A DNA stretch of 64,000 bases from a virus. Lineage: Duplodnaviria > Caudoviricetes. This document shows positions 21,037 to 47,184 of this stretch, one piece after another; the first letter of the stretch is position 1, and the number at the start of each line of letters is the position of its first letter. The stretch spans positions 96,001-160,000 of IMG/VR virus record IMGVR_UViG_3300021256_001754, one strand, 5' to 3'. The translations under genes were made by a program, and so were the position numbers. The notes beneath the pieces were generated by a model. It saw nothing but the letters and a program-made list of their open reading frames with translations. It was not told the origin of the DNA and searched no databases.

Positions 21037-21112
21037 TTATTCTACCTCCGATTATTAAAATTGTTAAAGAGTTCTGTATAAAATATATTTTTGATAATTC
21101 TCTTAACCGCTT

Positions 21113-21343
21113 GATGACAAACCAAAAATATTACGCATTACACAAATAACTAATGAGGTTGGTAGTTTTACAATACCACGCACAGAAATCCCTAGTGATT
21201 TACATTATATTATCGGAATTTATGGTTCATCTAATGGAAACTATTATGTTGTTCAATATAATAATATTATATATGGTGTATTTAATTATACTCATACACC
21301 ATATAGCGAACAAACCTTAACAATAGATTTTGTATATATTTAA
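21113..21343 (+). other. Start-less tip cassette A (76 codons, DDKPKILRITQITNEVGSF...TLTIDFVYI*)
   Basis: TAA-CCG-CTT-GAT-GAC; no ATG or SD; beta-rich, resembles cassettes F and G; missing from the ORF track. Confidence 0.75.
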
Positions 21344-21528
21344 AGGAGAATCATATTCATTAGTTAAAGTTACATCTAAGAAACAACTATTTGAAAATTA
21401 TTCTCCAACTTTATTATATTTATTATAAAAAGAAAATCCCTGGAGAATCATTCTCCAGGGATAATGTTTTGTTTCAAAAGTCCACATTCGATAACAAACT
21501 GTGTACTATAATAAATATAGTTAGCAGT

Positions 21529-21897
21529 CTACGGTTCTACATCCGGCTCTTTCATTGGATTATCATTTATAATTATTTCAAAATGACTATAGGTGCCATC
21601 ACCGTTATTATCGTCATATCTTATCTTTTTATGTAGATCAAAACTACATAAATAGTACATATTACTTAACCATATTTGAGCTGATTCACCATTAGTAAAC
21701 TCTACATTTAATTTTATTTCTGAATCTTCATATTGAATAACAGAGAATGTTTTTATTATACCGGTATATTTATTATAATATCTAGCACCAGAAAAAGAAC
21801 AATCATGATCATCTATCAAAGTAACATTGAGTTTTCTATTAGTGATATATTTTAAAGTCTTGACAAGTTTTCTTCTAGAAATATAATCTTCTTTCAT
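21529..21897 (-). CDS. Hypothetical protein
   Basis: 122 aa, AGGAGG SD. Confidence 0.7.
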   Translation of the reverse strand: MKEDYISRRKLVKTLKYITNRKLNVTLIDDHDCSFSGARYYNKYTGIIKTFSVIQYEDSEIKLNVEFTNGESAQIWLSNMYYLCSFDLHKKIRYDDNNGDGTYSHFEIIINDNPMKEPDVEP

Positions 21898-21966
21898 AAT
21901 ATAACCTCCTAATTTATTTTAAAGTTTTCGTTATTGTAATTATTTATTAAAATAAATTATACTACT

Positions 21967-22287
21967 GATGACCAAAAATATAAATTTTACGGTATGTACC
22001 AAATAACTGTAGAAATCGTGTCTATTTCTGCACCAGCATCTTTTAATGAATTATTATTTGAAATAGGTATAACTAATAATACTCAATTGTATGGTTGTAA
22101 ATCATTTATAATACCAAAACTAGAAGATGATCAAAATATTATATCGACAGGATCAATTTATAACGGAAGCGGAGATCTCTGTAGTAGTAGTGGTGCATAT
22201 ATATTTTGTGTAGTTGGAACAATAAAAATGCATTTATTCGAAACTCCTATAAAAGGAACAATATCAACTAGAATTTATTATAGATAA
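21967..22287 (+). other. Start-less tip cassette B (DDQKYKFYGMYQITV...)
   Basis: ACT-GAT-GAC in frame with ORF 21994; no SD; no ATG between upstream stop 21937 and core. Confidence 0.7.
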
Positions 22288-22298
22288 ATTATATTGCT

Positions 22299-22637
22299 GA
22301 TGATTTGGTGAATATTCGTAACTCTATAGCACGTTTCCAGTTTGGTACAGCTCAGACTTATAATGCTAGATATATAAAAGCACCTCTTGCAGAAAGAATA
22401 ATAACATCTGGTGGGTGGCCATGTATAGCTATTGCAACCGGCAAATCTGGTGCCGATCCATACTTAGCTTTAGGAACAATAGATTGGCTTGGAGGTATTG
22501 GTGAAACTGTTATTACTAAAGGTTGGTCTAGTGCAGTTAAATTTACTGTAACTGATAATAAAACTACTGTTACATTTGATGCTTTATCTTCTGCTTCATA
22601 TATCAAACTTACAGTATTCCAATTTTTCACCGACTAG
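22299..22637 (+). other. Start-less tip cassette C (DDLVNIRNSIARFQFG...)
   Basis: GCT-GAT-GAT-TTG; in-frame stop at 22281; beta-rich tip-like domain. Confidence 0.7.
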
Positions 22638-22643
22638 CAAGCT

Positions 22644-23033
22644 GATGACGTAAATAATATATTTCAAGGTCCAACTATAATGGATGCAAATGCTGCTCCG
22701 GTTGGTATAAGTTTCTTACCAATCGAAGCAGCAAATAACCCTTTAAATTCTTGGGCAACACTTATCACTACTTGTCCACAAGCTAATTATAAACAGCAAA
22801 TATGTACACCATGGTTTAATAATTTTAGAGAAATATGTTTTAGAGTTTATGATTATGATGGTTGGAAATCGTGGTCATTAATTCCATCAACAAGTCTTGG
22901 CGACCCTTTGAATGTAACTAATACAAATTTGTCTTGGACCGCTGCAAGTGGACGACAAAATGATTGTACCCCTGTACATTATGATGGTAGAGCATTTATT
23001 TATGTAGATGGTAATAAATTATACCTTACATAA
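22644..23033 (+). other. Start-less tip cassette D, pyocin-knob-like (DDVNNIFQGPTIMDANAAP...FRVYDYDGWKSWS...)
   Basis: TAG-CAA-GCT-GAT-GAC; DAN...NNP...W..L...QQ.....FR.....WxxW pattern of knob-type fibre domains. Confidence 0.75.
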
Positions 23034-23166
23034 TATCATATTGATAATCTAAAAAGAAATTATCCCTAGGATTAATACCCTAGGGACAATTTATAATTTT
23101 CATAAATAAATTGGGAGATTTATTTTATGACATTATTTTATAGTTGTAAATTAAATCTTTTACAAA

Positions 23167-23177
23167 TATATACTATA
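23167..23177 (+). promoter_or_regulatory. Early-type phage promoter motif TATATACTATA (representative)
   Basis: Exact copies at 336, 11584, 20573, 26966, 27020, 39896 (minus) and 23167, 40371 (plus); variant at 7939; each oriented toward a downstream gene. Confidence 0.75.
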
Positions 23178-23216
23178 ATTGTAGAAACATAAAAACCTAT
23201 ATGGAGGAAATTAAAA

Positions 23217-23804
23217 ATGAGCAATTTAATGATGTGCCCACATTGTGGGAAAGTTTATTTAAAAGAAACACTATCGGCTGATATTCAGGGTAGATATTTT
23301 TGTCCAGATTACGAGGATAGAAATAATGAGCTATTCGAAGTAGATGAGCAGATGGTTGTTGTTTTAAGACGTTTATGGGATTTAGGTTATTGGACAGAAT
23401 TCTGCTGTAGTGGTCATTATTCAGATACCAATCTTCCTTATATTCTGTTTGCTGATAGAGATCTTGCACCATGTACTCATCCTAAGAACTGGTTTATTCA
23501 GGATATAGAGTATTTGGATGATAATGACAAACTTGTTCAGAGTAAAACCGGAATATATGGAATTGTATCTAGTAAGAAAATAACAACACCAGAAGAAAGA
23601 CAGATCCGTAACAATAAGCTTATGAATGAACTGGTTAAGTGGGTTATGGATCTTGAACCTAATCCTATACCAGAAGCTCATGATGCAACAAAATGCTTTA
23701 GAGATGGTGATTCCACATATTATGGAGAAGATGGTTATAATATCTTTCCAGATAAATGGATAACAAAGAGTACACATTGTAGATATAAGAGAAGACCAGA
23801 ATAA
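23217..23804 (+). CDS. Cys-rich (Zn-ribbon) hypothetical protein
   Basis: CPHC, FCP, TEFCCSGH; GGAGG SD and TATATACTATA motif upstream. Confidence 0.75.
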   Translation: MSNLMMCPHCGKVYLKETLSADIQGRYFCPDYEDRNNELFEVDEQMVVVLRRLWDLGYWTEFCCSGHYSDTNLPYILFADRDLAPCTHPKNWFIQDIEYLDDNDKLVQSKTGIYGIVSSKKITTPEERQIRNNKLMNELVKWVMDLEPNPIPEAHDATKCFRDGDSTYYGEDGYNIFPDKWITKSTHCRYKRRPE

Positions 23805-23810
23805 ATGTAT

Positions 23811-23990
23811 TTATAAAGCTGAGGATAATTCCTCAGCTTTCTTTTTCGCATCTTCGACAGATTTACAAGCAAATACTCGTTGTCCGGCAGGATTATTCAT
23901 TATAAGAGTATAACTACCAGCTTCATATTTTATAACAAATTTCAAATCTACTGTATGGTAACAATTACCGCAACTAATCCATTTAATCAT
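23811..23990 (-). CDS. Small hypothetical protein
   Basis: MIKWISCGNC... after AAGGA SD, within ORF-track 23811..24038. Confidence 0.55.
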   Translation of the reverse strand: MIKWISCGNCYHTVDLKFVIKYEAGSYTLIMNNPAGQRVFACKSVEDAKKKAEELSSAL

Positions 23991-24019
23991 AAGAAATATT
24001 TCCTTTCGTATTTTATTTT

Positions 24020-24439
24020 TTATTCTTTTATAAACCATTCATAGAATAATTCAGGTTCTATACCTTCTTTAAAGCAGGATAATAATTTCTCTGCTGATAT
24101 TTCTATAACTTTTTTTCCAATACACATATTTATTATATATGCATCATGATACTTGTTCAATTTCACTTTTTTATCATTTTTAAGTGTTGGTACAGTTAAA
24201 AAACAAGCATCAATGCCTATACAATTTGTAGTTATAAAAATCATTAATCGATGTAACCAATCGAGATAATTTATATATTCTTTTTCACATTCCGATCTAT
24301 ATTCGTTATCTTCTTTATTGTCTTTTAATGGCAGTATGGTCAAATGATTTTCACATATAAAAATACCAATAAAGAATAAGATAACCATAACCAAGAAAAT
24401 ACCAATAGCCACAATAATACTATAATATAATAACTCCAT
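24020..24439 (-). CDS. Membrane-anchored hypothetical protein
   Basis: N-terminal TM, 139 aa. Confidence 0.65.
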   Translation of the reverse strand: MELLYYSIIVAIGIFLVMVILFFIGIFICENHLTILPLKDNKEDNEYRSECEKEYINYLDWLHRLMIFITTNCIGIDACFLTVPTLKNDKKVKLNKYHDAYIINMCIGKKVIEISAEKLLSCFKEGIEPELFYEWFIKE

Positions 24440-24552
24440 ACTTATACCCCCATAAATATTGATTTATAAGAATGTAATAGTGATGCTTATTTTATATATT
24501 TTATTTATATTTCACTTTGAAATAATATAATAATCTATAAGGAGGAAAGTGT

Positions 24553-24729
24553 ATGACATCTTGTAGAGATTGTTCTAGTAGAGTTGTATGGTATCATGGT
24601 ATTGGGAATATGGATAAATGTAAGTTTATACTATGTGGATTTAGACCTAAATTGAGAATGAAACCAAAGACAGTTCCAAAATGGTGTCCACGTATAGATG
24701 AATTGGAAAAGAAAGGAGATAAAGAATGA
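24553..24729 (+). CDS. Small Cys-rich protein (MTSCRDC...PKWCP)
   Basis: Hand-translated 58 aa with GGAGG SD; below ORF-track cutoff. Confidence 0.65.
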   Translation: MTSCRDCSSRVVWYHGIGNMDKCKFILCGFRPKLRMKPKTVPKWCPRIDELEKKGDKE

Positions 24730-24902
24730 ATCCGGTTATATATTTTTTGATAACATATTCAATCGCTATAATATTTAGCTTGTTTATATTTATTATTGTT
24801 AAACTTTATAAAAAATATGGATTGTATGTAGCTGTACCTGTTATTCTTGAAATCGTTATTATAATTCTTATTGCTCTATTGATTCATGAATTAATGTATT
24901 GA
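24726..24902 (+). CDS. Small two-TM membrane protein
   Basis: ATGA overlap with previous gene, AGGAG SD, 58 aa hydrophobic. Confidence 0.6.
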   Translation: MNPVIYFLITYSIAIIFSLFIFIIVKLYKKYGLYVAVPVILEIVIIILIALLIHELMY

Positions 24903-24936
24903 ATAAATATAATATCCATTCTTTTGGATTGCTTTT

Positions 24937-25254
24937 GATGACTTAAAATTCAGGATAAACGATGTTGCTAGAATATATGGTTTTTATAACAAGTTGTATG
25001 TTTATGTCAAAGATCTTTCGGCACAATATTTTTATGGAGCTGCAAAAGTTATTACTGAATATGGTGAAAATACAATTGGATTAATGGGCTACGATGGAAC
25101 ACAAACAGATACAAGTAGCCCTATAAAAACATATAAGCATAATAACAATGGTATGCTCGATATTCAATTTGTTTTCCCAAATACATATACACATGGAGTT
25201 TTATTATTAGGTGGTTCTGTAGTGAGAGGAAAAATAATAGATGGAACAGATTGA
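24937..25254 (+). other. Start-less tip cassette E (DDLKFRINDVARIYGFYNKLYVYV...)
   Basis: TTT-GAT-GAC in frame with ORF 24994; in-frame TAA at 24910, no ATG before core. Confidence 0.7.
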
Positions 25255-25309
25255 TTAAAAGAGAATAAAATACAACATAATCAAACTCGTAAGAAATACA
25301 GTAAATATA

Positions 25310-25337
25310 TCCCAGTAGGATACATTTCCTACTGGGA
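25310..25337. terminator. Terminator (CCCAGTAGG family)
   Basis: Perfect stem. Confidence 0.85.
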
Positions 25338-25342
25338 TTATA

Positions 25343-26224
25343 CTATCTCATAGCATTTGTCATTCTCTTTTCCTCATACATTCTTTTATCAGCCAATTCT
25401 ATTAATTCGGACACTATTTTAGTTTCTGACGAGCTAGCCGCACCAATACTGGTAGATACTTTTATTTTTCGCATTCCAACATACTCTATGTTGTTAAACG
25501 CCCCTAATATGCGGTTCTTAATAGCATCTATATCTAACTTTGATTCAATTTGTGCTACAATACAGAATTCATCTCCACCTATTCTAGCTACTATATTATT
25601 CTCCCCAAATTCACTTCCTAATTCTATAGCAACTTTAATAAGCACGTCATCCCCAAATCCGTGACCATATGTATCGTTTATAATTTTGAATTTATTTATA
25701 TCCAAAAAGAATACTGCATAATCTATATGATTTATCTCATGCATTTTCTCATATTCTTCAATATAAACATCTAATCCTCTTCTATTAAGCAATCCTGTTA
25801 ATGGATCTTTTAATACGAGATCTTCAAGTTGATGTGTATGTCTATCTACTTCAGTTACATCAATAAAGTATCCCCATAGTCCAATAATTTCATTGGTTTT
25901 CTTATCATAAACAGGGAACTTATTAGCAACGATATTTCTATTCTCTCCTCGGATAATGCAATTTCCCCTAGCATTACATATAACTTCCCCATCTTTAATA
26001 ACTTTAATCTCGTCTGATTTAAAAGGTTTAGGATTTACATGCCATTTCATTTCCTCGTCGTTTTTGCCCACAACTTCATCCAAAGTAATTCCATAGTAAT
26101 CTAAAAAGAATTTATTTACCCCCAAAAACTTCCTATCCTTATCCTTCCAAAATATCCCAACATCAATATTATTTAAAATTGAGTCTAATAAAACTTCTGA
26201 GGTAAAAGGTATTAAATTACTCAT
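25343..26224 (-). CDS. PAS-GGDEF diguanylate cyclase
   Basis: PAS (GIFWKDKDRKFLGVN), DPLTGLLNRRG, FKIINDTYGHGFGD, intact GGDEF. Confidence 0.95.
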   Translation of the reverse strand: MSNLIPFTSEVLLDSILNNIDVGIFWKDKDRKFLGVNKFFLDYYGITLDEVVGKNDEEMKWHVNPKPFKSDEIKVIKDGEVICNARGNCIIRGENRNIVANKFPVYDKKTNEIIGLWGYFIDVTEVDRHTHQLEDLVLKDPLTGLLNRRGLDVYIEEYEKMHEINHIDYAVFFLDINKFKIINDTYGHGFGDDVLIKVAIELGSEFGENNIVARIGGDEFCIVAQIESKLDIDAIKNRILGAFNNIEYVGMRKIKVSTSIGAASSSETKIVSELIELADKRMYEEKRMTNAMR

Positions 26225-26317
26225 AAATAACCACCTCTAATCTCATATGGATAATTTAATAAAATGTTTTAGTACAATAAAAAATAAAAGGCAGGTTGAA
26301 TTTCCTGCCTTTTATAT

Positions 26318-26920
26318 TTATCCGTGTGTCCAATTAGTAGCAATATCGAATGTGACACCACTACCATTATGTGTAAAATCTCCAGTATCGGCTACTATAC
26401 CTTTACCGAGAGATGTGTCTACTATACTACCATATGGATATATGTCCCAATCAGCAGCGACCATTATATAGTCTCCAAACATCTTGGCACCATCTTCGCG
26501 AATCCAGTAGTCTCCCTCATATCCCTTCTCTCTGAGGGTGCGTAATACGCCTTTCATATTAAGGTCGTAATACGTCTCTTTTCCACACGGACCATTGAAT
26601 ACACCAAGTTGTTTGGTAAGCTTAGGACCATCTGGAACAGGATTTAATATCTTTATTTTTTCGTCAGATACCAAATCTGCTCTGACATACCCACCACCTT
26701 CAACTGCTAACCATGCAGTATCAGTGATTGAATATTCTATCTGGGTGTTGATTCTGAATGTATCCAGTATCTCTGACTCAGTGTTAGGTTCTGCTCTTAA
26801 CCTAACACCATCCTTTGTGTAACCTGTTGCTGCACAACTACTTAGATTACTAAAAGCAATAACGTAAAATATCGCCATAACTAAAACAACAGCAGCAATT
26901 TTGATAACGTTCTTTTTCAT
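26318..26920 (-). CDS. Secreted SH3b + 3D/RlpA-like cell-wall enzyme
   Basis: Signal peptide, VRLRAEPNTESEIL SH3b, VAAD..IYPYGSIVDTSLG.GIVADTG; start at 26920 has AAGGAGG SD. Confidence 0.75.
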   Translation of the reverse strand: MKKNVIKIAAVVLVMAIFYVIAFSNLSSCAATGYTKDGVRLRAEPNTESEILDTFRINTQIEYSITDTAWLAVEGGGYVRADLVSDEKIKILNPVPDGPKLTKQLGVFNGPCGKETYYDLNMKGVLRTLREKGYEGDYWIREDGAKMFGDYIMVAADWDIYPYGSIVDTSLGKGIVADTGDFTHNGSGVTFDIATNWTHG

Positions 26921-27045
26921 TTTCTCGTCCTCCTTTAAATGAATTTCACGTTTCAACTACATTAATATAGTATATAATTTTAATCCTTCAAAATTACATA
27001 CTATACGTTATATTATTTTTATAGTATATAACCAAAGTAAAAAAT

Positions 27046-27072
27046 ACCCAGTAGGAGTTTATCCTACTGGGT
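27046..27072. terminator. Terminator (CCCAGTAGG family)
   Basis: Overlaps the HAD gene stop. Confidence 0.8.
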
Positions 27073-27520
27073 TATAAAATTTATTACCGTTTAAAATCGC
27101 TAAAGCATATTGTACATGAACCCATCCTAAGCCATTTCTATAAAAATCTGTTTTTACAAAATGTCTTTCTATCTCATCGTCATAGTCTCTAAATCTTTCA
27201 TCGTCTATTACACACCACGCGTCTATGTTTTGGTGTTCGTTCAAATATTTATGGATAGCTGTACCACGTTTACCACCTAGATGATCAACCTGATCAAATA
27301 TAAACAGTTTATGTTCTGCTAATCTACGTTCAAGATATAATAAGTTCTCTTCTATATTCATCCAACTAGAAGTCAAAACTAAGTATGCATTAGATTGTTC
27401 TACAATAGACTGTAATACTTCTATCTTTTCGTCATCTAGTCCAATTATAAATTTACTTAGTCTATCTTGTGTATCTTGACAGTTTAAAACCCCATCTATA
27501 TCAAGAAAAATAACTTTCAT
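27059..27520 (-). CDS. HAD-family hydrolase (Swiss Army Knife RNA-repair-like)
   Basis: IFLDIDGVLN, LTSSW, VIDDE. Confidence 0.88.
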   Translation of the reverse strand: MKVIFLDIDGVLNCQDTQDRLSKFIIGLDDEKIEVLQSIVEQSNAYLVLTSSWMNIEENLLYLERRLAEHKLFIFDQVDHLGGKRGTAIHKYLNEHQNIDAWCVIDDERFRDYDDEIERHFVKTDFYRNGLGWVHVQYALAILNGNKFYNPVG

Positions 27521-30074: not shown

Positions 30075-30171
30075 AAGTCTATCCTCCTTTATAGATGATC
30101 ACTAAATTATTATCTTCATGTGAAAGGATATGATAAATTACCAAGAATATATAGCATTTTTCTCACCTTTT

Positions 30172-30423
30172 GATGAAAAACATTATGGAGAAAAATATAT
30201 GAGTGTATATACTGATACAAATGGTAATATAAATTTAACTCAAGAAACAGGTGTTTATCCTACCAATTTTATATCTATTACGGCAGACAACACAGCAAAT
30301 TCATTATTTATATACCCTTATACTTACTATGAAAATTTATATTGTAGAGTAAAGCATGGATTTATAGTTGAAGATTATATCAATCAACGAGCCGATTTTC
30401 ATATAATCTATATAATAGATTAG
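30172..30423 (+). other. Tip cassette F (DEKHYGEKYMSVYTDTNGNINL...FHIIYIID*)
   Basis: TTT-GAT-GAA in frame; resembles A and G; upstream ATG 30130 has an SD-like AAAGGA only 1 nt away. Confidence 0.65.
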
Positions 30424-32940: not shown

Positions 32941-33005
32941 AATAAAAGCTGGGGATTGCAGAATCCCCAGCATATTTTATCAAACCATATTGCTAATACC
33001 ATTTT

Positions 33006-33266
33006 GATGAACTACATTACTCATCTGTCGCTAGAGCGTTAGGAAATTTTGGTGAAGCATCGTTAACTGACAACCAAGGAATAAATTTGCTGTATAGAGA
33101 CGTTATAGTACTAAATGTAAGTACAAATGATAGTCTAAACACGATATGCATACCTTATTACTATGGTAGTGGAAGTTGGGGAGTTCAAGTCAAGCAATTA
33201 GTAGGAGGAGATTATGCGACAGGTACAATTACTATAGATACATTATATACAAATAGAAAGTGGTAG
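33006..33266 (+). other. Start-less tip cassette G (DELHYSSVARALGNFGEASL...GSWGVQVKQL...TLYTNRKW*)
   Basis: TAA-TAC-CAT-TTT-GAT-GAA; 86 open codons without ATG; lies between two terminators; missing from ORF track. Confidence 0.75.
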
Positions 33267-33311
33267 AACTAATAAAATTTTAGGACTAGGGAATTATCCC
33301 TAGTCCTATTT

Positions 33312-36925: not shown

Positions 36926-37124
36926 AATAATCACCTCCTGTATAAATAATTTTAACTGAAAGTTGTATAGATAATAAAAATTCATTATCGTAAAAATAAG
37001 AATAAATGGAATAGCTTTATGCTACTCCTTTTTATTTTTGTAAATTAAATAAATAATAGAGGTGGAAGAAATTCCACCTCTTTATTTTATAGAAGATCCA
37101 TTGATATAGATTTGAGTGTCTACT

Positions 37125-37457
37125 GATGACATACAATATTATAGTGTTCATACATATAACAGCGAATACGGTGGAAGCATTCATGCTTTTAGAACAATGA
37201 AAATGGTGACATTATATGGTGTAGATTTGGGAAGCACATCAGCTCCACCCGAAAACACAGATTGGCTTATTCAAACATTAGATGAAATATATCGTCCTAT
37301 ATTTTCTGTACATTGTTTAGGTTTAACTTCAGAAATAATTTCATATGATCATTTGATAACTGTAACCATAAACACAGATGGTGTTATTTCGACATATACA
37401 TATGATATATATTCTAGAATTGTTTTGAGTTTCTGTGCATCATATATCGTAAATTAA
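37125..37457 (+). other. Start-less tip cassette H (DDIQYYSVH...FRTMKMVTL...IYRP...TINTDGVI...CASYIVN*)
   Basis: TGA-GTG-TCT-ACT-GAT-GAC; R....VTL...L....RP.....I..DG.I pattern of phage fibre C-terminal domains; followed by A15. Confidence 0.75.
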
Positions 37458-37507: not shown

Positions 37508-37547
37508 AAAATATTCCCAGTAGGTGTTATCCTACTGGGAATATTTT
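37508..37547. terminator. Terminator (CCCAGTAGG family)
   Basis: 17-bp stem. Confidence 0.85.
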
Positions 37548-37872: not shown

Positions 37873-37888
37873 GTTTCTCCATTATTTA

Positions 37889-38440: not shown

Positions 38441-38514
38441 AATTTTATTTCTCCTTAATTGTTAATTATTATAGAATTGTGAAAATGATACTATACTTTT
38501 ACAAATAAGTTTTT

Positions 38515-38664
38515 GATGAAATTTTCAATTTTAAATATGAAAAAATTGCTCCTAATGTGTGGGGATATTATGTCGAGTTTCCCAATGGTTCTGGATTGGC
38601 TATATCAGATTATGGTAAGGTAATGTATAAAAATTTGGTACATAGCGAATGGATAGATGTTTGA
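38515..38664 (+). other. Short start-less cassette I (DEIFNFKYEKIAPNVWGYYVEFPNGSGLAISDYGKVMYKNLVHSEWIDV*)
   Basis: TAA-GTT-TTT-GAT-GAA; 49 open codons. Confidence 0.6.
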
Positions 38665-39849: not shown

Positions 39850-39937
39850 ATTTCTCCTCCAGATAAAATTATTTTATTGTTTTCGTATACATTTTTATAG
39901 TATATATTTATAAATAATAATTCTCTTTTAAACTACT

Positions 39938-40266
39938 GATGATTTAAAAGTTCAAGAATTATCAGTTTCTCTGAATCCCATAAATTCACGTGTAACTATA
40001 AACGAGAGTATTTTTATAAAATTAGCAAGTTATGCATTGCTGAAATAATATTTACAACAAATCAAGCAATATCAGGAATTGTAGTTAATCCTATTTCATT
40101 ATTTGATAGATCTCCTACACCAATTTCGAATACTCATATTACCGCAACTTTTCGTAATGGTGAAAGTGCTCAATGTGTTCTTCTTACGAATGGTAACTTT
40201 ATTTCGCAAAGTACTATATCTAGTGGTACAACATCTTATGTACATTATGTATACATATTGTCGTAA
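39938..40266 (+). pseudogene. Start-less tip cassette J with a one-base frameshift
   Basis: TAA-ACT-ACT-GAT-GAT; adding one T to the T5 run near 40011 gives DDLKVQEL...SIFYKISKLCIAEI...LLTNGNF...YVYILS*; followed by A10. Confidence 0.7.
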
Positions 40267-41006: not shown

Positions 41007-41008
41007 TT

Positions 41009-41518
41009 ATGGCACGATTGAAAGATAAAATAAATAATTTATACAACGAGGTTAAAGATAATATAACCACAGAGGATGAAATGATAACCTTTATCAATGA
41101 CTTTACTGATAACTTATCTAAATTGTTCTATATTATAGACAATACTCTTGCTGAAAGTAGTATAGTTAATCCTTTTTATTATCCAGATCCGGCAATAAAT
41201 AACGAAAATAAAGGATTTAGGATGTATTATTACAACAAGTGTATTACTGAAATTCTTTTTGGTAAACTCAATTTCACTAAATTACATATCTTCTCTGTAG
41301 CAATATACAGAAATGCTGATAAGTATTTTCTTGAGATTCGTCAAGATAAACGTCCTGGACATAAAGAAGATGATAAACGCTTTTTTATAGTTGAAGGTGA
41401 AAAATATGAAAAGGCTGATAGTAATATAGATCTACATACAGTATATAATATTCTAAATACAACTTATATGAAATTAAGTATAGAAGCAGATATTAAAATA
41501 ATCGAATTAAAAAAATAA
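41009..41518 (+). CDS. Hypothetical protein
   Basis: ATG after GGGAG; contains IVNPFYY motif. Confidence 0.7.
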   Translation: MARLKDKINNLYNEVKDNITTEDEMITFINDFTDNLSKLFYIIDNTLAESSIVNPFYYPDPAINNENKGFRMYYYNKCITEILFGKLNFTKLHIFSVAIYRNADKYFLEIRQDKRPGHKEDDKRFFIVEGEKYEKADSNIDLHTVYNILNTTYMKLSIEADIKIIELKK

Positions 41519-41539
41519 TAAACAGAAAGGTGAATCACA

Positions 41540-42652
41540 ATGAAAGAAACTGATACCGATTATTCTATAAAGTTTTATAAGAGATTTTATTACAATAAAA
41601 ATTCTATATCATTTATGAGATATCCGGATTATATGTATATGGCTGAAATAAAAAATCCATATTCATCTTTATGTGGAAACAGGGTATTTGAAATCGAAGA
41701 GCTTACAAAATCACGTGATGTTAATGGAACTTGGAGTATAGATATCCTCTTTAGATCTAATCCTAAATTATTAGATTATGATTATAGTATGGTAAAGGAA
41801 ATATTTGATTATGATAGAAATTGTTTGGCATTTTACGTTAGCAATAACTTTAGTAATTCATATTGGAGAGATCGTATATTTACCATTATAGGAGATAGTT
41901 TAAAATTAATTAATACCACTCTTAGATGTACCAGAATTGACGATTCAGATGAATATTATACTTTAAGTGGTATAATTGTACCAGAGGTTGTAGAAGATAT
42001 CGATAGAAGTTCAATAATCCCTAATCAGATGATCGATATGACTTTGCCTGCTCTTCTTCCTAAGCCTATAACTAAGGATGAAAAATGGCCTACAAAACCA
42101 TCTACTGCCGAGATGGATAAAGAAGATATAGTGTCAAAAGCAATAGATGAAATGACGTTATATCCGGAGAAAATAGTAGATTATATTCATTTTAATAATA
42201 CGACCACAACGAGGCTATTTCGTGATATAATAATTAAAAGTCTTAAAAAGGTATATGGAGATGATTATAAGTTAGGTTATAAATCTCAGATGGATTCTAC
42301 AAGAAAATTAATGGAGGATAAAATGAAATTAACAAGAGTTGGAATGATGTGTTTGGAACTGAAGGATGTAAAGTTCTCTGGAGATAAAACTATCGCGTTC
42401 TGGGAAGATGGTGAAAAGACTATTGTTACTATGCAGGACGATGAAAAGGAGTATGATCCCGAGAAGGCTATTATGGCTTGTTATATGAAGAGATTGATTG
42501 ATATTCAGAAACAGGTTACTAACCATAATATTTCTATAAAGAAGATCTTTGATAAGTATCTTGCTAAGTATGAGAAAGAGAAACCGAAGATTGAAGCTCA
42601 GATTCAGAAGATTAAGCAGAGAAAGGCTAATAAAAAAGAGAATACAAAATAA
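41540..42652 (+). CDS. Hypothetical protein with a common phage C-terminal domain and internal start
   Basis: C-terminal VKFSGDKTIAFWEDGEKTIV...YDPEKAI; internal GGAGG-ATG at 42323. Confidence 0.7.
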   Translation: MKETDTDYSIKFYKRFYYNKNSISFMRYPDYMYMAEIKNPYSSLCGNRVFEIEELTKSRDVNGTWSIDILFRSNPKLLDYDYSMVKEIFDYDRNCLAFYVSNNFSNSYWRDRIFTIIGDSLKLINTTLRCTRIDDSDEYYTLSGIIVPEVVEDIDRSSIIPNQMIDMTLPALLPKPITKDEKWPTKPSTAEMDKEDIVSKAIDEMTLYPEKIVDYIHFNNTTTTRLFRDIIIKSLKKVYGDDYKLGYKSQMDSTRKLMEDKMKLTRVGMMCLELKDVKFSGDKTIAFWEDGEKTIVTMQDDEKEYDPEKAIMACYMKRLIDIQKQVTNHNISIKKIFDKYLAKYEKEKPKIEAQIQKIKQRKANKKENTK

Positions 42653-42777
42653 GCTTCTCAAGAACTGTGAATAATAAATTAATCCCTGGGTGATTCCCAG
42701 GGATTTTTCTTTTATGAAAGGAGTATTATTTAACACATATCAAAACTAAAAAATAATAAATAGAAAGGTAATTCAGA

Positions 42778-43014
42778 ATGAAAGAAAACGATAATATAAT
42801 CGAATTAGAGAAAGTTAAACAGGAGAAAGAAAAGAAACGTATTAATGAGCTTACAGAAAATTTTGTAGCAAATGATTTAAACAAATTTCTGGAAACTCTT
42901 CCTGATACATACAGTGAATTCGAAAAGGATGTATCATTAGTATCCTATGTATTTACAACTGGTTATCTTTATGGAAAAGATGATGCAAAGAAAGAAATAG
43001 GTGAATCTAAATAG
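42778..43014 (+). CDS. Small protein, tandem duplicate of 43029
   Basis: Near-identical N- and C-termini. Confidence 0.75.
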   Translation: MKENDNIIELEKVKQEKEKKRINELTENFVANDLNKFLETLPDTYSEFEKDVSLVSYVFTTGYLYGKDDAKKEIGESK

Positions 43015-43028
43015 AAAGGTGGTTCATA

Positions 43029-43256
43029 ATGAACGAAAACGATAACGTAATTGAATTAGAGAAAATTAAACAGGAGAAAGAAAAGAAACGTATTAAAGAG
43101 CTTGTAGAGCATTTTATAATAGAACAATTGGATGATTTTCTAAAAACTCTTCCAGATACATATAATACAATCGAAAGAGATATATCAATATCATCTTGTG
43201 CATTTACAGCCGGTTATCTTTATGGAAAAGAAGATGCAAAGAAAGAAATCGAATAA
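43029..43256 (+). CDS. Small protein, tandem duplicate of 42778
   Basis: As above. Confidence 0.75.
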   Translation: MNENDNVIELEKIKQEKEKKRIKELVEHFIIEQLDDFLKTLPDTYNTIERDISISSCAFTAGYLYGKEDAKKEIE

Positions 43257-43267
43257 GGAGATAATAT

Positions 43268-43849
43268 ATGGATAAATGGGGTCGTAAGAATTCAGATTCA
43301 AATAATTTTAGAGTTGTACTTTTTGTATCTAGAAATAAAGATAACAAAACACCAGCAAATATTGTAAAAGGTTTTAAAGAAAGGAAAGAATCTTTTTTAA
43401 CCTATAAAGATACAGATGAGTTGATGGAAGATTTTAAAAACTTTGCTAGTAAAGGTGTTCCTGGAGAGATAAGCAGATTCTATATATCTGTAAATGCAAG
43501 AAATCTTACAAGCATTAAAAGAGCAGTATTGCATGCATTGATAGACGATGATTCAAATAAATTTATTGCAAATCCTCTTCCTTATATTGCAGGTATAGCA
43601 GCTTTAAAAGAAAATGCTTTGACTAGGAAATGGATGCTTGATATAGATACAAAAGATGAATCTGTATTAAATCAGATAAAAGAACTCATATCTAAAAATA
43701 CTGTAATATCTGAAGAAATAGAAACTCCAAATGGTTATCATATTATAGTAGAAAATGGATTTGATACTAGAGAATTATTGAATAAATTCCGCGATGTATC
43801 TCTAAAAAGAGATGATCTAAAATTCGTTTCTATAGCTACGAAAGTATAA
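43268..43849 (+). CDS. AEP (primase-polymerase)-superfamily-like protein
   Basis: WMLDIDTKD (hhDhD) and ETPNGYHII (xxGxH) motifs. Confidence 0.5.
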   Translation: MDKWGRKNSDSNNFRVVLFVSRNKDNKTPANIVKGFKERKESFLTYKDTDELMEDFKNFASKGVPGEISRFYISVNARNLTSIKRAVLHALIDDDSNKFIANPLPYIAGIAALKENALTRKWMLDIDTKDESVLNQIKELISKNTVISEEIETPNGYHIIVENGFDTRELLNKFRDVSLKRDDLKFVSIATKV

Positions 43850-44028
43850 TATACAAAAAATAAATAGCCCTAGGGACAATAAATCCCTAGGGTTATTTAC
43901 ATGTCTATGTTTCCTAAGTCTTTATTATTAAAGGAGAAACTTCAATTTTTTAACTTAGGAATTTTGAGAGGTGTCAATATATCGATATTACGACACTAAT
44001 GTAGAAGATTCTATACCGACATATTGAG

Positions 44029-44102
44029 AGCTCCTAATCTGATTCGAACAGATAACCTACTGATTACAAATCAGTTGCTCTTGCCAGTTGAGCTATAGAA
44101 GC
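44029..44102 (-). tRNA. trnT: tRNA-Thr(UGU)
   Basis: Minus strand GCTTCTA...TAGGAGC acceptor stem, GCTC/GAGC D arm, ACTGA-TTTGTAA-TCAGT anticodon arm, ATCTG-TTCGAAT-CAGAT T arm; CCA not encoded. Confidence 0.92.
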
Positions 44103-44226
44103 TTAAGTCTTAATCTTAGTAGGAGGGAAGATTAAGACTTATGGTTGATATACACAATATATCGATAGGCGCAGCTTTGTATATACCAACTTCCAAGGAT
44201 TACTTATATGTAGATAATACATATTT

Positions 44227-44784
44227 TTATTTTTTCATATTGCTCTTTAATAATACAAGTAAAGCTTTCTTTTGTGTATCTGTATATCTAAATATATTTT
44301 CTTTCATACTTCTAAGTACAAAATTAAAATTGTTTACATCCTCATCTGTATTATCAGATAATAAATATCTTAACGATATATCAAATCTATAAGATATTTT
44401 CTCTAATATATCACTATCAGGAATTAAATCTCCAGTAAGAAGCAGTACTAAAGTATGTTCTGGTATATCGGTATCTTTTGATAATTGCTTTAGTGTTAAT
44501 TTATCTCTTTCTATTAATCTGAATAGATTAGAGCTAAAAGCAAATTTCTTACATCTATCACTAATACGTACATCGCTTAATATATAATCTGTAGGTACAT
44601 CGAATAGATCCGCTATCTTTTTCAATAAAATTACACATTTATAAGAACCGTTTATAAATTTATAAACGGTTGGTTGTTTGGTTTTTGTAAGTTCAGCGAG
44701 TTGTTGTATTGATATTCCTTTACGATCTAACAATTCATCCAAATTATCACACATTGTTTCTTCTATCTTATGATAATCTTTCAT
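44227..44784 (-). CDS. Tandem XRE/Cro-type HTH regulator
   Basis: Two HTH_3-like units (ISIQQLAELTK...; LTLKQLSKDTDI...). Confidence 0.85.
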   Translation of the reverse strand: MKDYHKIEETMCDNLDELLDRKGISIQQLAELTKTKQPTVYKFINGSYKCVILLKKIADLFDVPTDYILSDVRISDRCKKFAFSSNLFRLIERDKLTLKQLSKDTDIPEHTLVLLLTGDLIPDSDILEKISYRFDISLRYLLSDNTDEDVNNFNFVLRSMKENIFRYTDTQKKALLVLLKSNMKK

Positions 44785-44802
44785 ATGATACTCCTATATA
44801 AA

Positions 44803-45267
44803 TTACCATTTAGTAGAATCTATATCATTCCATATAACCTTATTATTATATTTCTTACCAAGTTCTATAGAATGAGATGTACCTTTACCTTTGCTCTGTT
44901 TATCTTTATAACAAAGAACTACTCTATGAGGATATTTAGCTATAAATTGATGCATTTCTTCATTTCTTATAAAACCAGCACTTGCACCAAATTTCTTCCA
45001 ATTAGCCGGAAATACTATTAAACGATATCCATTTCTTCTAGCATAATCCTCTGCAATAGAATCTACACCAGTAGCCCCACCTGATACTATAACGATATTG
45101 TATCTATCATTAACAACCGATTCTATATCTCTAGTTATCATTTTAGATATTTCATTGTATGCTTTTTCGTATTGCTCTGAATATCTAGGCGAATCTTTAG
45201 TTACTGTTCTAGATCCTGCAATTAAAACCATAAAAGTTGTCTCTGTTGTCATATTGTCGTTGTTCAT
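44803..45267 (-). CDS. YspA/SLOG-family (DUF2493-like) protein
   Basis: LIAGSR, IVSGGATGVD, ANWKKFGASAGFIRNEEM, KGTSHSI. Confidence 0.88.
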   Translation of the reverse strand: MNNDNMTTETTFMVLIAGSRTVTKDSPRYSEQYEKAYNEISKMITRDIESVVNDRYNIVIVSGGATGVDSIAEDYARRNGYRLIVFPANWKKFGASAGFIRNEEMHQFIAKYPHRVVLCYKDKQSKGKGTSHSIELGKKYNNKVIWNDIDSTKW

Positions 45268-45305
45268 TTTATTTCTCCTTTAGATTTATATATTAAAAAA
45301 GATAG

Positions 45306-45650
45306 TTATATTTTACTATCTTCTTTTTGAAGATAAGTTTTATTTATTGCTATTGCATCGTCACCGATATGTCTATACATAAAATCAAATTTATCTATAC
45401 GTAATCTTGATGTTTCACCATTATCAAATCTTACATCAGCATAGTATACAATAACACCATCAGATCTAATAGATTTACCAATTTGTGTTATCACACAATG
45501 CTGACATTCTTTAATTTCATCTATACCATCATAATCAGATAACGATGTTATACGGTTTATGCTATACAGTATGACTATAAGTGATAAAACTATAGCAACA
45601 CATCCGGTAACGAGTTTAAAATACATTAAAACTAATCTCTTCTTTTCCAT
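45306..45650 (-). CDS. Membrane-anchored hypothetical protein
   Basis: N-terminal TM; start uncertain (45650 or 45677). Confidence 0.6.
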   Translation of the reverse strand: MEKKRLVLMYFKLVTGCVAIVLSLIVILYSINRITSLSDYDGIDEIKECQHCVITQIGKSIRSDGVIVYYADVRFDNGETSRLRIDKFDFMYRHIGDDAIAINKTYLQKEDSKI

Positions 45651-45768
45651 ATTCAATTGTACCCCTTCTAATGACATTTAAGCCTAAATTAATAAAATGT
45701 GATTCTATCTGTATATAATTATTATTATCTTAATATAATATTAATAAATGATAAAGGAGCATAATTAT

Positions 45769-45939
45769 ATGGAAACTAGAGAATATTATAGATACATTGG
45801 TAGATATAGATATTTTGATAGAAAGATAATCGATTATTCTAATGGATTGATAATTCGTTGTTTATCTGATAGAGAATTAAAAAATAGACAGAATAATATG
45901 TGTGAAATATATGAGAAAATAAAAGTAAACAATAGCTAA
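45769..45939 (+). CDS. Small hypothetical protein
   Basis: METREYY... after AAGGAG. Confidence 0.55.
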   Translation: METREYYRYIGRYRYFDRKIIDYSNGLIIRCLSDRELKNRQNNMCEIYEKIKVNNS

Positions 45940-45979
45940 AACTAACTTATAATATTAGTATAATTTAGGAGGTTGATAT

Positions 45980-46288
45980 ATGAATATTGAAGTTGTTAGA
46001 AGAAAAGGTGAAATTATACCAACAAGAATGGTTATCAGAGTAGATGGAGTTGAGGTTATCTATAATCCGTTACCAGATAAATTTGGATATAATTTTTGTA
46101 TGCCATCTATAAAGGATGAGAAGAAAGCTATAGAAATTGCTGAGGGTATAGCAACAGTTATGGAGAATCAGTCTTACGATCATGGTGCTAGTTGGAGAAG
46201 AACTTCTGTAGAGATTGTACCACAGAACGAAAGATATAAGATTGGTACTATTGTAAGAGTATTGTTTAGAGTGAGAGATGCTGGTTGA
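45980..46288 (+). CDS. Hypothetical protein
   Basis: AGGAGG SD, 102 aa. Confidence 0.75.
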   Translation: MNIEVVRRKGEIIPTRMVIRVDGVEVIYNPLPDKFGYNFCMPSIKDEKKAIEIAEGIATVMENQSYDHGASWRRTSVEIVPQNERYKIGTIVRVLFRVRDAG

Positions 46289-46321
46289 TATTTTATTCTC
46301 TATGGTTAAAATACCGTAGAG

Positions 46322-46405
46322 AATATTTATTGTATAGTAAGCTCTTATATAAGATACCCCCTTAATCTGATAATGGTGGTATATGATAGCTTCAGAAATA
46401 TACAC
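46322..46405 (-). repeat. Inverted copy of an internal segment of the Bro-N gene
   Basis: Reverse complement matches 48328-48389 and 47978-48012; peptide YQIKGVSYIRAYYTINI vs YQISGVSIQELYYTINI. Confidence 0.8.
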
Positions 46406-46440
46406 TAAGATTCTTTTTTTTTTTTCGATATATATTTAAT

Positions 46441-47184
46441 GATGAGCTTACTGGCAATAGCACAGCTGGTTATCATAATGCTAAATATAGGAATAAAGAT
46501 TTAGGTACGATAACAGCTGGTAATAGAGATGCTTGGGTTCAAACCTATGTAAATGGTGGTAATTTTGAAGCTTTTGTTGGTGACGAAGTTACTATACAAG
46601 ATGGTGTTTATAATGCTAAATGGTTGGTAGCAGGATGTGATACTGAGTTGAATAAAGGAGATACCGCTTTAACAACACATCATGTTAGCTTGATTCCAAA
46701 AACACATTTATTTAGTGCTAGAATGAATAGCTCTAATACAACAGCAGGTGGTGTAAAGGGATCAGAAATGGTCACATCTACATTGCCAGCTTTAGCAACA
46801 ACTCTTAAATCTGCTCTTGGTAATAGACTTCTTGAGAGAAGAGTTTTGTACAGTAAGGCTGTTGATACATCAGCAGTTTCACAGTATTCTAAATGGACAG
46901 GTATGGCTTCCGATTGGGAATGGTTTAGCGCTTACTGTAGTTTGTTATCAGAAGTACAAGTTTATGGCTCTATGGTGTTTGGTGGTCCATACGATATAGG
47001 AGAGGCTTCACAGCAGTTACCGATATTTAAATTTATCAATTTTATAAATTACAGTCGTTCCCTCTTCTGGCTTCGTGGTGTCGCGAGCTCTACGGATTTC
47101 TGTCGTGCCAGCGGCAACGGCATTGCCGACTACACCAGCGCTTCCGCTTCCAATGGTGTTCGCCCGCTCATAACTGTTGGATGA
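46441..47184 (+). other. Start-less tip cassette K: DGR-target-type C-type-lectin (DUF6273-like) domain with variable region
   Basis: AAT-GAT-GAG start, 247 open codons (DELTGNSTAGYHNAKYRNKDLG...FWLRGVAS...ASASNGVRP); GC-rich 3' VR-like tract about 47060-47180. Confidence 0.8.

What the first reader, a model, noticed from the sequence alone, without database searches (positions are those of the whole stretch)
21112..47184. Dispersed library of 11 silent receptor-binding tip cassettes sharing an in-frame TGATGA junction
Seen in sequence: 11 + strand reading frames sit in intergenic gaps, with the GAT at 21113, 21967, 22299, 22644, 24937, 30172, 33006, 37125, 38515, 39938 and 46441. All begin with T|GAT|GAN (DDK, DDQ, DDL, DDV, DDL, DEK, DEL, DDI, DEI, DDL, DEL), and 10 of 11 have a pyrimidine just before the core. 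In 10 of 11 an in-frame stop lies 2-17 codons upstream with no ATG and no SD in between, so the coding signal begins exactly at the core. From family knowledge: most products resemble C-terminal adhesin domains of Firmicutes phage fibres (pyocin-knob-like D, fibre tips H and J, a related A/F/G group, C-type lectin K), and DDL/DEL looks like the end of the coiled coil before such tips. Inference: these are interchangeable tips fused to an expressed fibre stem by crossover at TGATGA. Unlike Gin/Cin/Rci shufflons, the cassettes are co-oriented, spread over 26 kb among ordinary genes, and share only a 6-bp core. Alternatives are gene conversion, circle excision and reinsertion, RNA-level joining, or discarded relics of past tip swaps. 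No acceptor gene or recombinase is in this window.
Basis: partly seen in the sequence, partly recalled or inferred. Interest (0 to 1): 0.95.

Follow-up and report, generated by a model that had tools for sequence, protein, structure and literature searches.

The report
Silent tail-fibre tip library in jumbo phage
A 250-kb gut jumbo phage stores about 20 start-less alternative tips for one short tail fibre, each beginning at the six bases TGATGA that end the fibre's constant part, and has erased that hexamer from nearly all the rest of its genome, which points to an undescribed way for a virus to change what it binds.

Summary
All 11 frames begin at T|GAT|GA, have an in-frame stop 2-17 codons upstream, lack a ribosome-binding site, and use the phage's own codon preferences.

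The window lies in a complete 249,585-bp AR9/PBS1-like jumbo phage. TGATGA is its most avoided hexamer: 26 copies on the + strand and 2 on the - strand, against about 275 expected inside long genes alone. About 20 of the survivors are cassette starts.

The missing acceptor lies 10 kb upstream of the window. It is a 235-aa fibre: a 117-aa anchor ending ...ITQLN|DD (AAT GAT GAC), then a tip.

Metagenome contigs from near-identical strains carry the same anchor (96-100% identical) fused to unrelated tips. DNA similarity breaks at TGATGA and resumes in the flanks of distant cassette slots of this genome. More distant ~255-kb relatives also have start-less TGATGA cassettes and share a Xer/integron-like tyrosine recombinase, but show no hexamer purge.

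Best reading: silent tips joined to the anchor by DNA recombination at TGATGA. Switching within this phage and the enzyme are unproven, because no read data could be obtained. This scan reported other silent fibre-cassette libraries in another jumbo phage.

The parts
21112..21343 (+). Cassette A: TGATGA core (21112-21117) plus a 76-codon start-less tip ORF (DDK...).
   Evidence: It has no ATG/GTG/TTG start that would give 60 aa or more.
21966..22287 (+). Cassette B: core plus a 106-codon ORF (DDQ...), first of the tandem array B-C-D.
   Evidence: The positionally equivalent array in related contig L018 holds different tips.
22298..22637 (+). Cassette C: core plus a 112-codon ORF (DDL...). It starts 11 nt after B's stop.
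   Evidence: Highest coding score of the set. The AlphaFold model is all-beta but of low confidence.
22643..23033 (+). Cassette D: core plus a 129-codon ORF (DDV...), pyocin-knob-like tip. It is in frame with C, separated by TAG and two codons. A hairpin follows at 23063-23086.
   Evidence: The protein atlas gives feature score 0.94 to pyocin-knob clusters and TM 0.55-0.63 to the C-termini of fibre proteins.
24936..25254 (+). Cassette E: core plus a 105-codon ORF (DDL...). A terminator-type hairpin follows at 25309-25338.
30171..30423 (+). Cassette F: core plus an 83-codon ORF (DEK...). It is the only window cassette with an in-frame ATG upstream (30130), so it may be translated on its own.
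33005..33266 (+). Cassette G: core plus an 86-codon ORF (DEL...). A hairpin follows at 33281-33308.
   Evidence: Its coding score is weak (0.05).
37124..37457 (+). Cassette H: core plus a 110-codon ORF (DDI...). A hairpin follows at 37511-37544.
38514..38664 (+). Cassette I: core plus a short 49-codon ORF (DEI...).
39937..40265 (+). Cassette J: core plus 36 codons (DDL...). The tip then continues in frame +2, so this copy is frameshifted and damaged.
46440..47184 (+). Cassette K: core plus a 247-codon ORF (DEL...), a large tip of the kind that diversity-generating retroelements rewrite.
   Evidence: 2,283 homologues; in nearly all of the 150 listed the domain lies at the extreme C-terminus, and similarity starts at K residues 7-13. 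The best hit, P0001, is the same anchor plus KLN-NDL plus a K-like tip, next to an intact reverse transcriptase.
47182..47225 (.). Second TGATGA at K's stop, paired with TCATCA 38 nt downstream. Together they form the inverted repeat TGATGAAT...ATTCATCA. This TCATCA is one of only two - strand copies of the hexamer in the genome.

Best explanation
The 11 frames are silent alternative C-terminal receptor-binding tips of a short tail fibre. They cannot be translated where they lie. The fibre's constant part is a 117-aa N-terminal anchor with its own promoter region and strong ribosome-binding site. It is encoded once, 10 kb upstream of the window (genome 85,705-86,055), and ends ...ITQLN|DD, written AAT|GAT|GAC.

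A tip is expressed when DNA recombination places it directly behind the anchor, with the joint inside the shared hexamer TGATGA, so that the frame is kept.

Shown:
- the cassettes are real coding sequence without starts;
- the acceptor exists;
- the hexamer is held at the nucleotide level against a genome-wide purge;
- in nature the same anchor is joined at TGATGA to different tips and to different cassette slots.

Inferred:
- the joining is an active, recurrent process in this phage rather than rare evolutionary accidents;
- the enzyme may be the family-conserved Xer/integron-like tyrosine recombinase at 222 kb;
- because essential genes lie between the anchor and the window's cassettes, the productive event is not a heritable deletion. 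It would have to be a move of the anchor module or of a cassette, a copy, or a rearrangement on only some of the replicating genome copies.
For: 1. No independent translation: there is no start codon and no SD, while 106 of 122 genes have an SD. The coding signature is nevertheless genuine.

2. Acceptor: the 235-aa gene has the SD AGGAGG. Its anchor is paralogous to the N-termini of the 764-aa fibre (PHROG 7389 tail fibre), the 1,650-aa protein and the 776-aa protein. In 29 homologues the sequence is conserved up to L-N-D-D and unalignable after it. The junction lies inside predicted helix 95-137.

3. Natural fusions: P0152, P0153 and P0171 have anchors 96-100% identical to this one but unrelated tips.
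- In L019 and L020, from two samples, DNA identity to genome 85,537-86,065 stops at TGATGA. It resumes at 93,519-94,020, the flank of slot c93114, and stops again at the next TGATGA.
- L018 links the anchor to an array that continues into the sequence just downstream of the B-C-D array (genome 119,058-120,237).
- L021 links it to a homologue of the - strand cassette at 53,007.
- A silent cassette of L018 is 46% identical over its full length to the expressed tip of L019.

4. Nucleotide-level constraint: the purge recoded 104 of 107 T-Asp-Asp/Glu contexts to GAC, yet every junction keeps T GAT GA.

5. DNA level: the hexamer is avoided on both strands whatever the direction of transcription. Non-coding TGATGA copies mark module edges at 85,543 and 52,353.

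6. Candidate enzyme: it is the only recombinase in the genome. Its homologues have longest contigs of the same lengths as those of anchor homologues (255,984; 256,798; 255,006 bp). It is not among the top hits in AR9-like phages.
Against: - No reads could be examined, so no junction variant has been seen inside one population. Exact-junction searches found nothing.
- The strain differences could be fixed evolutionary rearrangements.
- Only 6 bp are shared and no recombinase-binding arms are visible.
- The recombinase lies 80-170 kb from the cassettes, and its nearest characterised relatives are prophage integrases.
- A DnaB-like helicase, an SF2 helicase and an endolysin lie between the anchor and the window's cassettes, so simple deletions would be lethal.
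- Relatives keep start-less TGATGA cassettes without any purge, even at 74-75% recombinase identity. The purge may therefore have another cause, such as a host restriction enzyme.
- J is frameshifted, and I and G look weak, as expected for decaying relics.
Confidence: 0.55

Rival explanations
1. Evolutionary relics. Each cassette is an orphan tip displaced when a new tip was recombined in behind the anchor, as with orphan Rhs and CdiA toxin tips. The orphans are no longer used. The purge of TGATGA is ordinary avoidance of a host restriction site.
For: - Orphan C-terminal modules without starts are well known in polymorphic toxin loci (PMC3967940, PMC3482391).
- J is frameshifted and I is very short.
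- K sits beside a collapsed diversity-generating retroelement.
- Relatives have cassettes but no purge, so the two phenomena can be separated.
- No switching has been observed directly.
Against: - Most of the roughly 20 cassettes are intact (I is very short and J is frameshifted) and carry host-like codon usage, although they share no detectable sequence similarity.
- A purge that removed about 98% of copies spared every cassette junction, although a synonymous GAC would do.
- The residual sites would still expose the phage to a restriction enzyme.
- Cassettes turn over completely between strains that differ by only 5-10% in the flanks.
- Non-coding TGATGA copies sit at module edges.
- Dispersal among essential genes is hard to obtain by serial displacement.
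Confidence: 0.15
2. RNA-level joining. Each cassette is transcribed on its own, and its RNA is joined to the anchor message at UGAUGA. The joining could be sequence-specific cleavage and ligation, trans-splicing, or template switching by the phage RNA polymerase. The genome itself stays intact.
For: - Most cassettes or cassette arrays occupy their own intergenic slot, with a divergent upstream gap and often a terminator hairpin downstream.
- Essential genes separate the anchor from the cassettes, so a non-genomic joint would be safe.
- A pyrimidine-rich tract precedes the core here and in relatives.
Against: - The hexamer is also purged in antisense orientation (0 observed against 42 expected), which an RNA signal does not need.
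- No RtcB or MazF-type nuclease was found, and no known RNA family matched the window or the upstream cassette cluster.
- The gaps are too short for group I or II introns.
- The fusions seen in contigs are DNA.
Confidence: 0.12
3. The cassettes are independent small genes, translated by an unconventional initiation at or next to TGATGA. One possibility is the AUG inside the hexamer followed by a frame change. The products would then bind the fibre non-covalently.
For: - Every core contains NTG-ATG.
- F and H have upstream in-frame starts.
- Gene callers predict truncated ORFs from internal ATGs.
Against: - The ATG is in the +1 frame, which closes after 2-35 codons.
- There is no SD in a phage that uses a strong SD.
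- There is no upstream ORF for a +1 shift; K has TAA TGA TGA.
- Homologous tips occur covalently fused to anchors.
Confidence: 0.05

Closest known systems
Phage receptor-binding-protein shufflons: Min of p15B, Gin of Mu, Cin of P1, and the tyrosine-recombinase Rin shufflon of Bifidobacterium prophages (PMC6109161)
   Same: One constant N-terminal fibre segment and several dissimilar, start-less C-terminal segments. Each segment is preceded by a short asymmetric repeat (11 bp in Rin) that is rare elsewhere. Rin uses a tyrosine recombinase.
   Different: - Shufflon segments are inverted relative to one another, contiguous, and next to their recombinase, and they are swapped by inversion.
- Here nearly all cassettes are co-oriented and spread over 90 kb among essential genes.
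- They share only 6 bp.
- The only recombinase is 80-170 kb away.
- The core is purged genome-wide.
Orphan C-terminal toxin modules of Rhs and CdiA (PMC3967940; PMC3482391)
   Same: Gene fragments that lack translation initiation and encode alternative C-terminal domains. They begin at a conserved demarcation motif and are expressed only after recombination with the main gene.
   Different: - Orphans keep tens to hundreds of bp of core homology that guides homologous recombination.
- They lie directly downstream of the main gene.
- They carry immunity genes.
- Here the shared sequence is a hexamer, and the modules are dispersed.
Integron gene cassettes (IntI, attI x attC)
   Same: Promoter-less, co-oriented cassettes whose only conserved sequence is a short core at each boundary. 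They are moved by a Xer-related tyrosine recombinase. A newly inserted cassette pushes older ones downstream, as in the tandem arrays here.
   Different: - Integron cassettes are whole genes with an attC hairpin, held in one contiguous array beside intI.
- Here the cassettes are in-frame protein modules.
- Hairpins are generic terminators, with 16 copies genome-wide.
- Only K has a core/inverse-core pair.
- The recombinase scores far below the integron-integrase cut-off.
Silent-cassette antigenic variation (Neisseria pilE/pilS, Borrelia vlsE, Treponema tprK)
   Same: One expression site and many silent partial copies without promoter or start.
   Different: Those systems rely on homology blocks for non-reciprocal gene conversion and occur in bacteria. 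Here the cassettes are unrelated in sequence and the carrier is a virus.
Restriction-site avoidance and strand bias in phages (T7 and EcoP15I, recalled from memory)
   Same: Extreme depletion of one short asymmetric sequence, and a strong strand bias of the survivors (26 to 2).
   Different: The survivors are not random. They sit at the first base of about 20 start-less fibre-tip frames and at module edges. Both orientations are purged, which a type III enzyme does not require.

Membership tests
Phage RBP shufflon (Min/Rin/Gin/Cin type) | A constant N-terminal fibre segment with alternative start-less C-terminal segments | tested here: met
   The anchor is conserved up to LNDD and the tips are unalignable after it. 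The cassettes lack starts.
Phage RBP shufflon (Min/Rin/Gin/Cin type) | Segments bounded by inverted crossover sites, so that inversion swaps them | tested here: not met
   26 of 28 cores are on one strand, and all 12 in the window are. Only the cassette at genome 53,007 is inverted.
Phage RBP shufflon (Min/Rin/Gin/Cin type) | A contiguous locus with its own invertase gene adjacent | tested here: not met
   The cassettes span genome 53-143 kb. There is no serine recombinase. The single tyrosine recombinase is at 222 kb.
Integron | An integron-type integrase (IntI) | tested here: not met
   TIGR02249 scores 74 bits against a cut-off of 265. The best model is XerA/Xer-like at 209 bits, against a cut-off of 220.
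Integron | Each cassette ends in an attC palindrome with an inverse-core and core pair | tested here: not met
   TCATCA occurs only twice in the genome. Only K has such a pair. The other hairpins are generic terminators.
Silent-cassette gene conversion (pilS/vls/tprK type) | Homology blocks that flank the variable segment and guide conversion | tested here: not met
   Only the hexamer and a weak C-N-T-A-A after it are shared. The cassettes show no significant similarity to one another.
Silent-cassette gene conversion (pilS/vls/tprK type) | Non-reciprocal copying into one expression site, with donors left unchanged | not testable with these tools
   This needs reads from one population.
Orphan modules of polymorphic toxins (Rhs/CdiA type) | Start-less C-terminal modules that begin at a conserved demarcation motif | tested here: met
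   All begin D-D or D-E at T GAT GA.
Orphan modules of polymorphic toxins (Rhs/CdiA type) | Retained upstream core homology, and a position directly behind the main gene | tested here: not met
   There is no similarity upstream of the core. The window's cassettes lie 31-57 kb from the anchor.
Diversity-generating retroelement (for cassette K) | A reverse transcriptase plus a template repeat | tested here: not met
   The genome has no RVT_1 match. Only remnants homologous to the avd-like gene and the RT tail of relative L013 are present.
Restriction-site avoidance | Depletion of a short sequence on both strands | tested here: met
   AR9-like phages of the same size carry 169-252 copies per strand.
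Restriction-site avoidance | Residual sites placed without regard to gene features | tested here: not met
   About 20 of 26 + strand sites are the first bases of start-less tip frames, and 3 more are at module edges.

The most novel reading that the evidence does not exclude
The phage carries out a V(D)J-like somatic rearrangement. A hexamer-specific cut-and-join activity acts on TGATGA in a fraction of the replicating genome copies, or on their transcripts. One anchor is thereby fused to many tips within a single infection, and the burst carries a mixture of fibre tips while the packaged genome stays unrearranged. The genome-wide purge of TGATGA would be the price of using a 6-bp signal.
Probability: 0.2. 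Interest if true: 0.97.

Novelty: new variant of a known kind. Interest (0 to 1): 0.88.

Why it matters
Host range is the main limit on what a phage can infect. The known programmed ways to change it are few: invertible tail-fibre segments and diversity-generating retroelements.

A stored library of about 20 unrelated ready-made tips keyed to a 6-bp joint would be a third route. It occurs in a widespread family of human-gut jumbo phages.

The anatomy rules out three textbook mechanisms:
- inversion, because the cassettes are co-oriented;
- heritable deletion, because essential genes lie in between;
- homology-guided conversion, because only 6 bp are shared.

Working out the mechanism should therefore reveal new recombination, or RNA-joining, biochemistry.

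The near-total, very recent purge of one hexamer, which spared only the junctions, is a rare natural experiment. It marks functional nucleotides directly.

Tried and rejected
- Alternative genetic code: reassigning any single stop codon gives no clear gain.
- +1 frameshift from a short upstream ORF ending at TGA TGA (prfB or antizyme type): the upstream TGA-frame stretches are only 0-34 codons, and K has none.
- Start at the ATG inside the core: that frame closes after 2-35 codons.
- Introns and known RNAs: Rfam finds only tRNA-Thr in the window, and nothing above E=0.01 in the upstream cassette cluster. The gaps are too short for an intron.
- tmRNA-like tagging: five tRNA-like elements lie behind two upstream cassettes. 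They are not one per cassette and ARAGORN finds no tmRNA, so I dropped the idea.
- Own-promoter idea: the early-promoter-like motif AAATATATACTATA exists in the genome, but only 3-4 cassettes carry a degenerate copy.
- Cassette-specific 3' site: the recurrent hairpin CCAGTAGG...CCTACTGG occurs 16 times genome-wide and is a generic terminator.
- Enzyme hunt: no serine recombinase, reverse transcriptase, Y1 transposase, RtcB, MazF/PemK or N6/N4 methyltransferase. Ten ORFs inside the upstream cluster and seven next to window cassettes gave nothing relevant.
- Homologues of B, C, D and H: none in isolated phages, and none for D among longer proteins.
- Exact anchor-junction 26-mer: no match in metagenome or viral contigs.
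- The search for related loci with single proteins: one distant fibre found (L009) and otherwise nothing.
- Genome-wide scan for other start-less coding frames: too noisy, because antisense frames of real genes also score.
- AlphaFold model of cassette C alone: too poor (pLDDT 48) to search with.

Full report
**What the window is.** The window is bases 96,001-160,000 of a complete 249,585-bp virus record. The code is standard: reassigning a stop gives no gain. A split virion RNA-polymerase beta subunit is 34% identical to those of Bacillus phages AR9 and PBS1. Genes use strong Shine-Dalgarno sites (106 of 122). An endolysin with choline-binding repeats lies among the cassettes. This is therefore a jumbo phage of a low-GC Gram-positive gut bacterium, with no near relative among isolated phages.

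**The observation.** All 11 coordinates are right.
- Each frame opens at T|GAT|GA and runs 36-247 codons.
- Each has an in-frame stop 2-17 codons upstream and no ribosome-binding site.
- The ATG inside the core is in the +1 frame, which closes after 2-35 codons. The TGA frame upstream is 0-34 codons long.
- Codon-usage likelihood marks the GAT frame of every cassette as coding, at the level of real small genes. G and J are weak.
- F has an upstream in-frame ATG, H has a GTG, and J is frameshifted.
- The cassettes are not significantly similar to one another. Nine of them match no Pfam or PHROG family.

**The hexamer.**
- TGATGA occurs 26 times on the + strand and twice on the - strand.
- It and its complement are by far the most under-represented hexamers (z -8.1 and -7.5; the next is -3.6).
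- Synonymous shuffles of 166 long genes expect 163 and 71 sense copies and 28 and 14 antisense copies. Observed: 4, 0, 0, 0.
- The purge is visible codon by codon. After a codon ending in T, Asp before Asp/Glu is GAC 104 times and GAT 3 times, against 85% GAT overall.
- AR9-like phages of the same size carry 169-252 copies per strand.
- About 20 of the 26 + strand survivors are the first bases of start-less frames. Ten of the 11 flagged in the window are such starts; F has an upstream in-frame ATG. About nine more lie at genome 86.4-95.7 kb.
- One of the two - strand copies starts a further cassette at 53,007. The other pairs with the TGATGA at K's stop in an inverted repeat.
- Only the hexamer is conserved, plus a weak C-N-T-A-A that reflects D-D-[LVI]-[KN].

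**The acceptor.**
- Gene 85,705-86,412 has a strong SD and encodes 235 aa.
- Residues 1-117 are an anchor paralogous to the N-termini of four other proteins: the neighbouring 764-aa tail fibre (PHROG 7389), a 1,650-aa protein, a 776-aa protein and a 150-aa protein.
- The anchor ends ...ITQLN|DD, written CTA AAT GAT GAC. A 118-aa tip follows, and then two start-less cassettes in tandem.
- AlphaFold puts the junction inside a long helix, residues 95-137.
- The 764-aa fibre also keeps an in-frame TGATGA, at codon 407 (YFVV|DD). A related fibre is homologous on both sides of that point, so its role is open.

**The cassettes are tips.**
- K has 2,283 homologues. In nearly all of the 150 listed the domain is at the extreme C-terminus of a longer protein, and similarity starts at K residues 7-13.
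- The best hit, P0001, is the same kind of anchor, then KLN-NDL, then a K-like tip. It lies after baseplate-gene homologues and before an intact reverse transcriptase.
- D resembles pyocin-knob domains and the C-termini of fibre proteins.

**Comparative evidence for joining at TGATGA.** A search with the 235-aa protein found proteins whose anchor is 96-100% identical but whose tip is unrelated from the residue after LNDD: P0152, P0153 and P0171. P0154 does the same at 80%. Across 29 homologues, L-N-D are nearly invariant and nothing aligns afterwards. At the DNA level:
- L019 and L020, from two samples, match genome 85,537-86,065 at 94% and stop at the core. A new tip follows. They then match 93,519-94,020 at 96%, which is the hairpin and - strand gene that follow slot c93114. 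They stop again at the next core, where a different tip sits.
- L018 links the anchor and its tip to four start-less cassettes, and then to the sequence that follows the B-C-D array at 119 kb.
- L021 links the anchor to a 52%-identical homologue of the - strand cassette at 53,007.
- A silent cassette of L018 is 46% identical over its full length to the expressed tip of L019.
- The left edge of the conserved anchor module coincides with a non-coding TGATGA at 85,543, which reads TAATGA in the relatives.

So the same stem is joined to different tips and different slots, with breakpoints at the hexamer, in strains only 4-11% diverged.

**Family-wide versus lineage-specific features.** Three ~255-kb relatives, with anchors 54-61% identical, also carry start-less TGATGA-led tips. 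These lie on both strands and are often homologous to the resident expressed tip. Those relatives, and closer ones with 74-75% recombinase identity, show no depletion of the hexamer. The cassette system is therefore old, and the purge is recent and specific to this lineage. Whatever caused the purge, it spared every junction. That shows the nucleotides, not only the two acidic residues, are needed there.

**Mechanism.**
- Purging on both strands regardless of transcription, together with DNA-level fusions in contigs, favours DNA recombination.
- The only recombinase is a Xer/integron-like tyrosine enzyme. Its homologues have longest contigs of the same lengths as those of anchor homologues. 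It was not among the top hits in AR9-like phages. It is a candidate only.
- A DnaB-like helicase, an SF2 helicase and the endolysin lie between the anchor and the window's cassettes, so heritable deletions are excluded. The remaining options are movement of the anchor module or of cassettes, copying, or rearrangement of only some genome copies.
- RNA-level joining, pure relics plus restriction avoidance, and odd translation starts remain as rivals. I give them about 0.12, 0.15 and 0.05.
- No read data could be obtained.

**Comparison with known systems.** The closest are:
- the Min and Rin shufflons of phage receptor-binding proteins (PMC6109161);
- orphan Rhs and CdiA tips, which are activated by recombination (PMC3967940);
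- integron cassettes;
- bacterial silent-cassette antigenic variation.

This system shares their logic but fails a defining feature of each: inverted sites and an adjacent invertase, retained homology, attC sites and IntI, or homology blocks. Five literature searches found no description of it. Earlier notes of this scan report silent fibre-cassette libraries of a different design in another jumbo phage.

Noticed in passing
L010:7215-7347, 7670-7797, 7996-8162, 12904-13087, 13094-13224 (genome 89,015-95,024, upstream of the window): Five tRNA-like elements with a conserved closing stem (ATGTGG/CCACAT), a tRNA-Leu-like D arm that covaries, a T-like arm with an enlarged loop, and a 60-100-nt variable centre. 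They lie behind cassettes c88692 and c94360. ARAGORN and Rfam do not call them.
   Followed up: partly
window:47267-47922: Directly after cassette K lie remnants of a diversity-generating retroelement. One frame is 53% identical to part of the avd-like gene of relative L013, and another is 55% identical to the last ~77 aa of its reverse transcriptase. The genome has no intact RT.
   Followed up: partly
genome 52,353-53,007 (outside the window; L001): A start-less tip cassette on the - strand (53,006 down to 52,668) is bracketed by inverted TGATGA copies at 52,353 (+) and 53,007 (-). This is the one place where an inversion-type switch is geometrically possible.
   Followed up: partly
window:13089-18041: A 1,650-aa protein in the GC-richer part of the window starts with the same fibre anchor domain (42% identical) and contains no TGATGA. 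A 776-aa paralogue lies on the - strand at window 58,023-60,350.
   Followed up: partly
genome-wide, e.g. window:23164 and window:40368 (+), window:39909 (-): The motif AAATATATACTATA recurs about a dozen times, often 20-30 nt upstream of SD-ATG gene starts. It resembles the annotated early promoter of phage AR9 (AAATATATATTAT).
   Followed up: partly
window:25346-26224 (-): A phage-encoded PAS-GGDEF diguanylate cyclase lies between cassettes E and F.
   Followed up: no
window:29037-30074 (-): An endolysin-like protein with choline-binding repeats, a clue that the host has choline-decorated cell walls (clostridial or streptococcal type).
   Followed up: no
genome 83,583 and 60,003 (outside the window): Two in-gene TGATGA copies survived the purge: one in the 764-aa tail fibre (YFVV|DD, codon 407) and one in a 463-aa protein of unknown function (G-D-E). 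Both could have been recoded synonymously, so they may be further functional sites.
   Followed up: partly
genome-wide: The pentamers AACAT and ATGTT are the most under-represented (197 observed against 320 expected; 204 against 323). The hexamers AAACAT and ATGTTT are over-represented. This may relate to an AR9-type late promoter.
   Followed up: no
L026:883-1149 (the equivalent of cassette c86435): In another sample's contig, the precomputed annotation gives the ORF called inside cassette c86435 a Pfam Gp53-like_C hit. This is a further sign that the upstream cassettes are tail or baseplate-tip domains.
   Followed up: no
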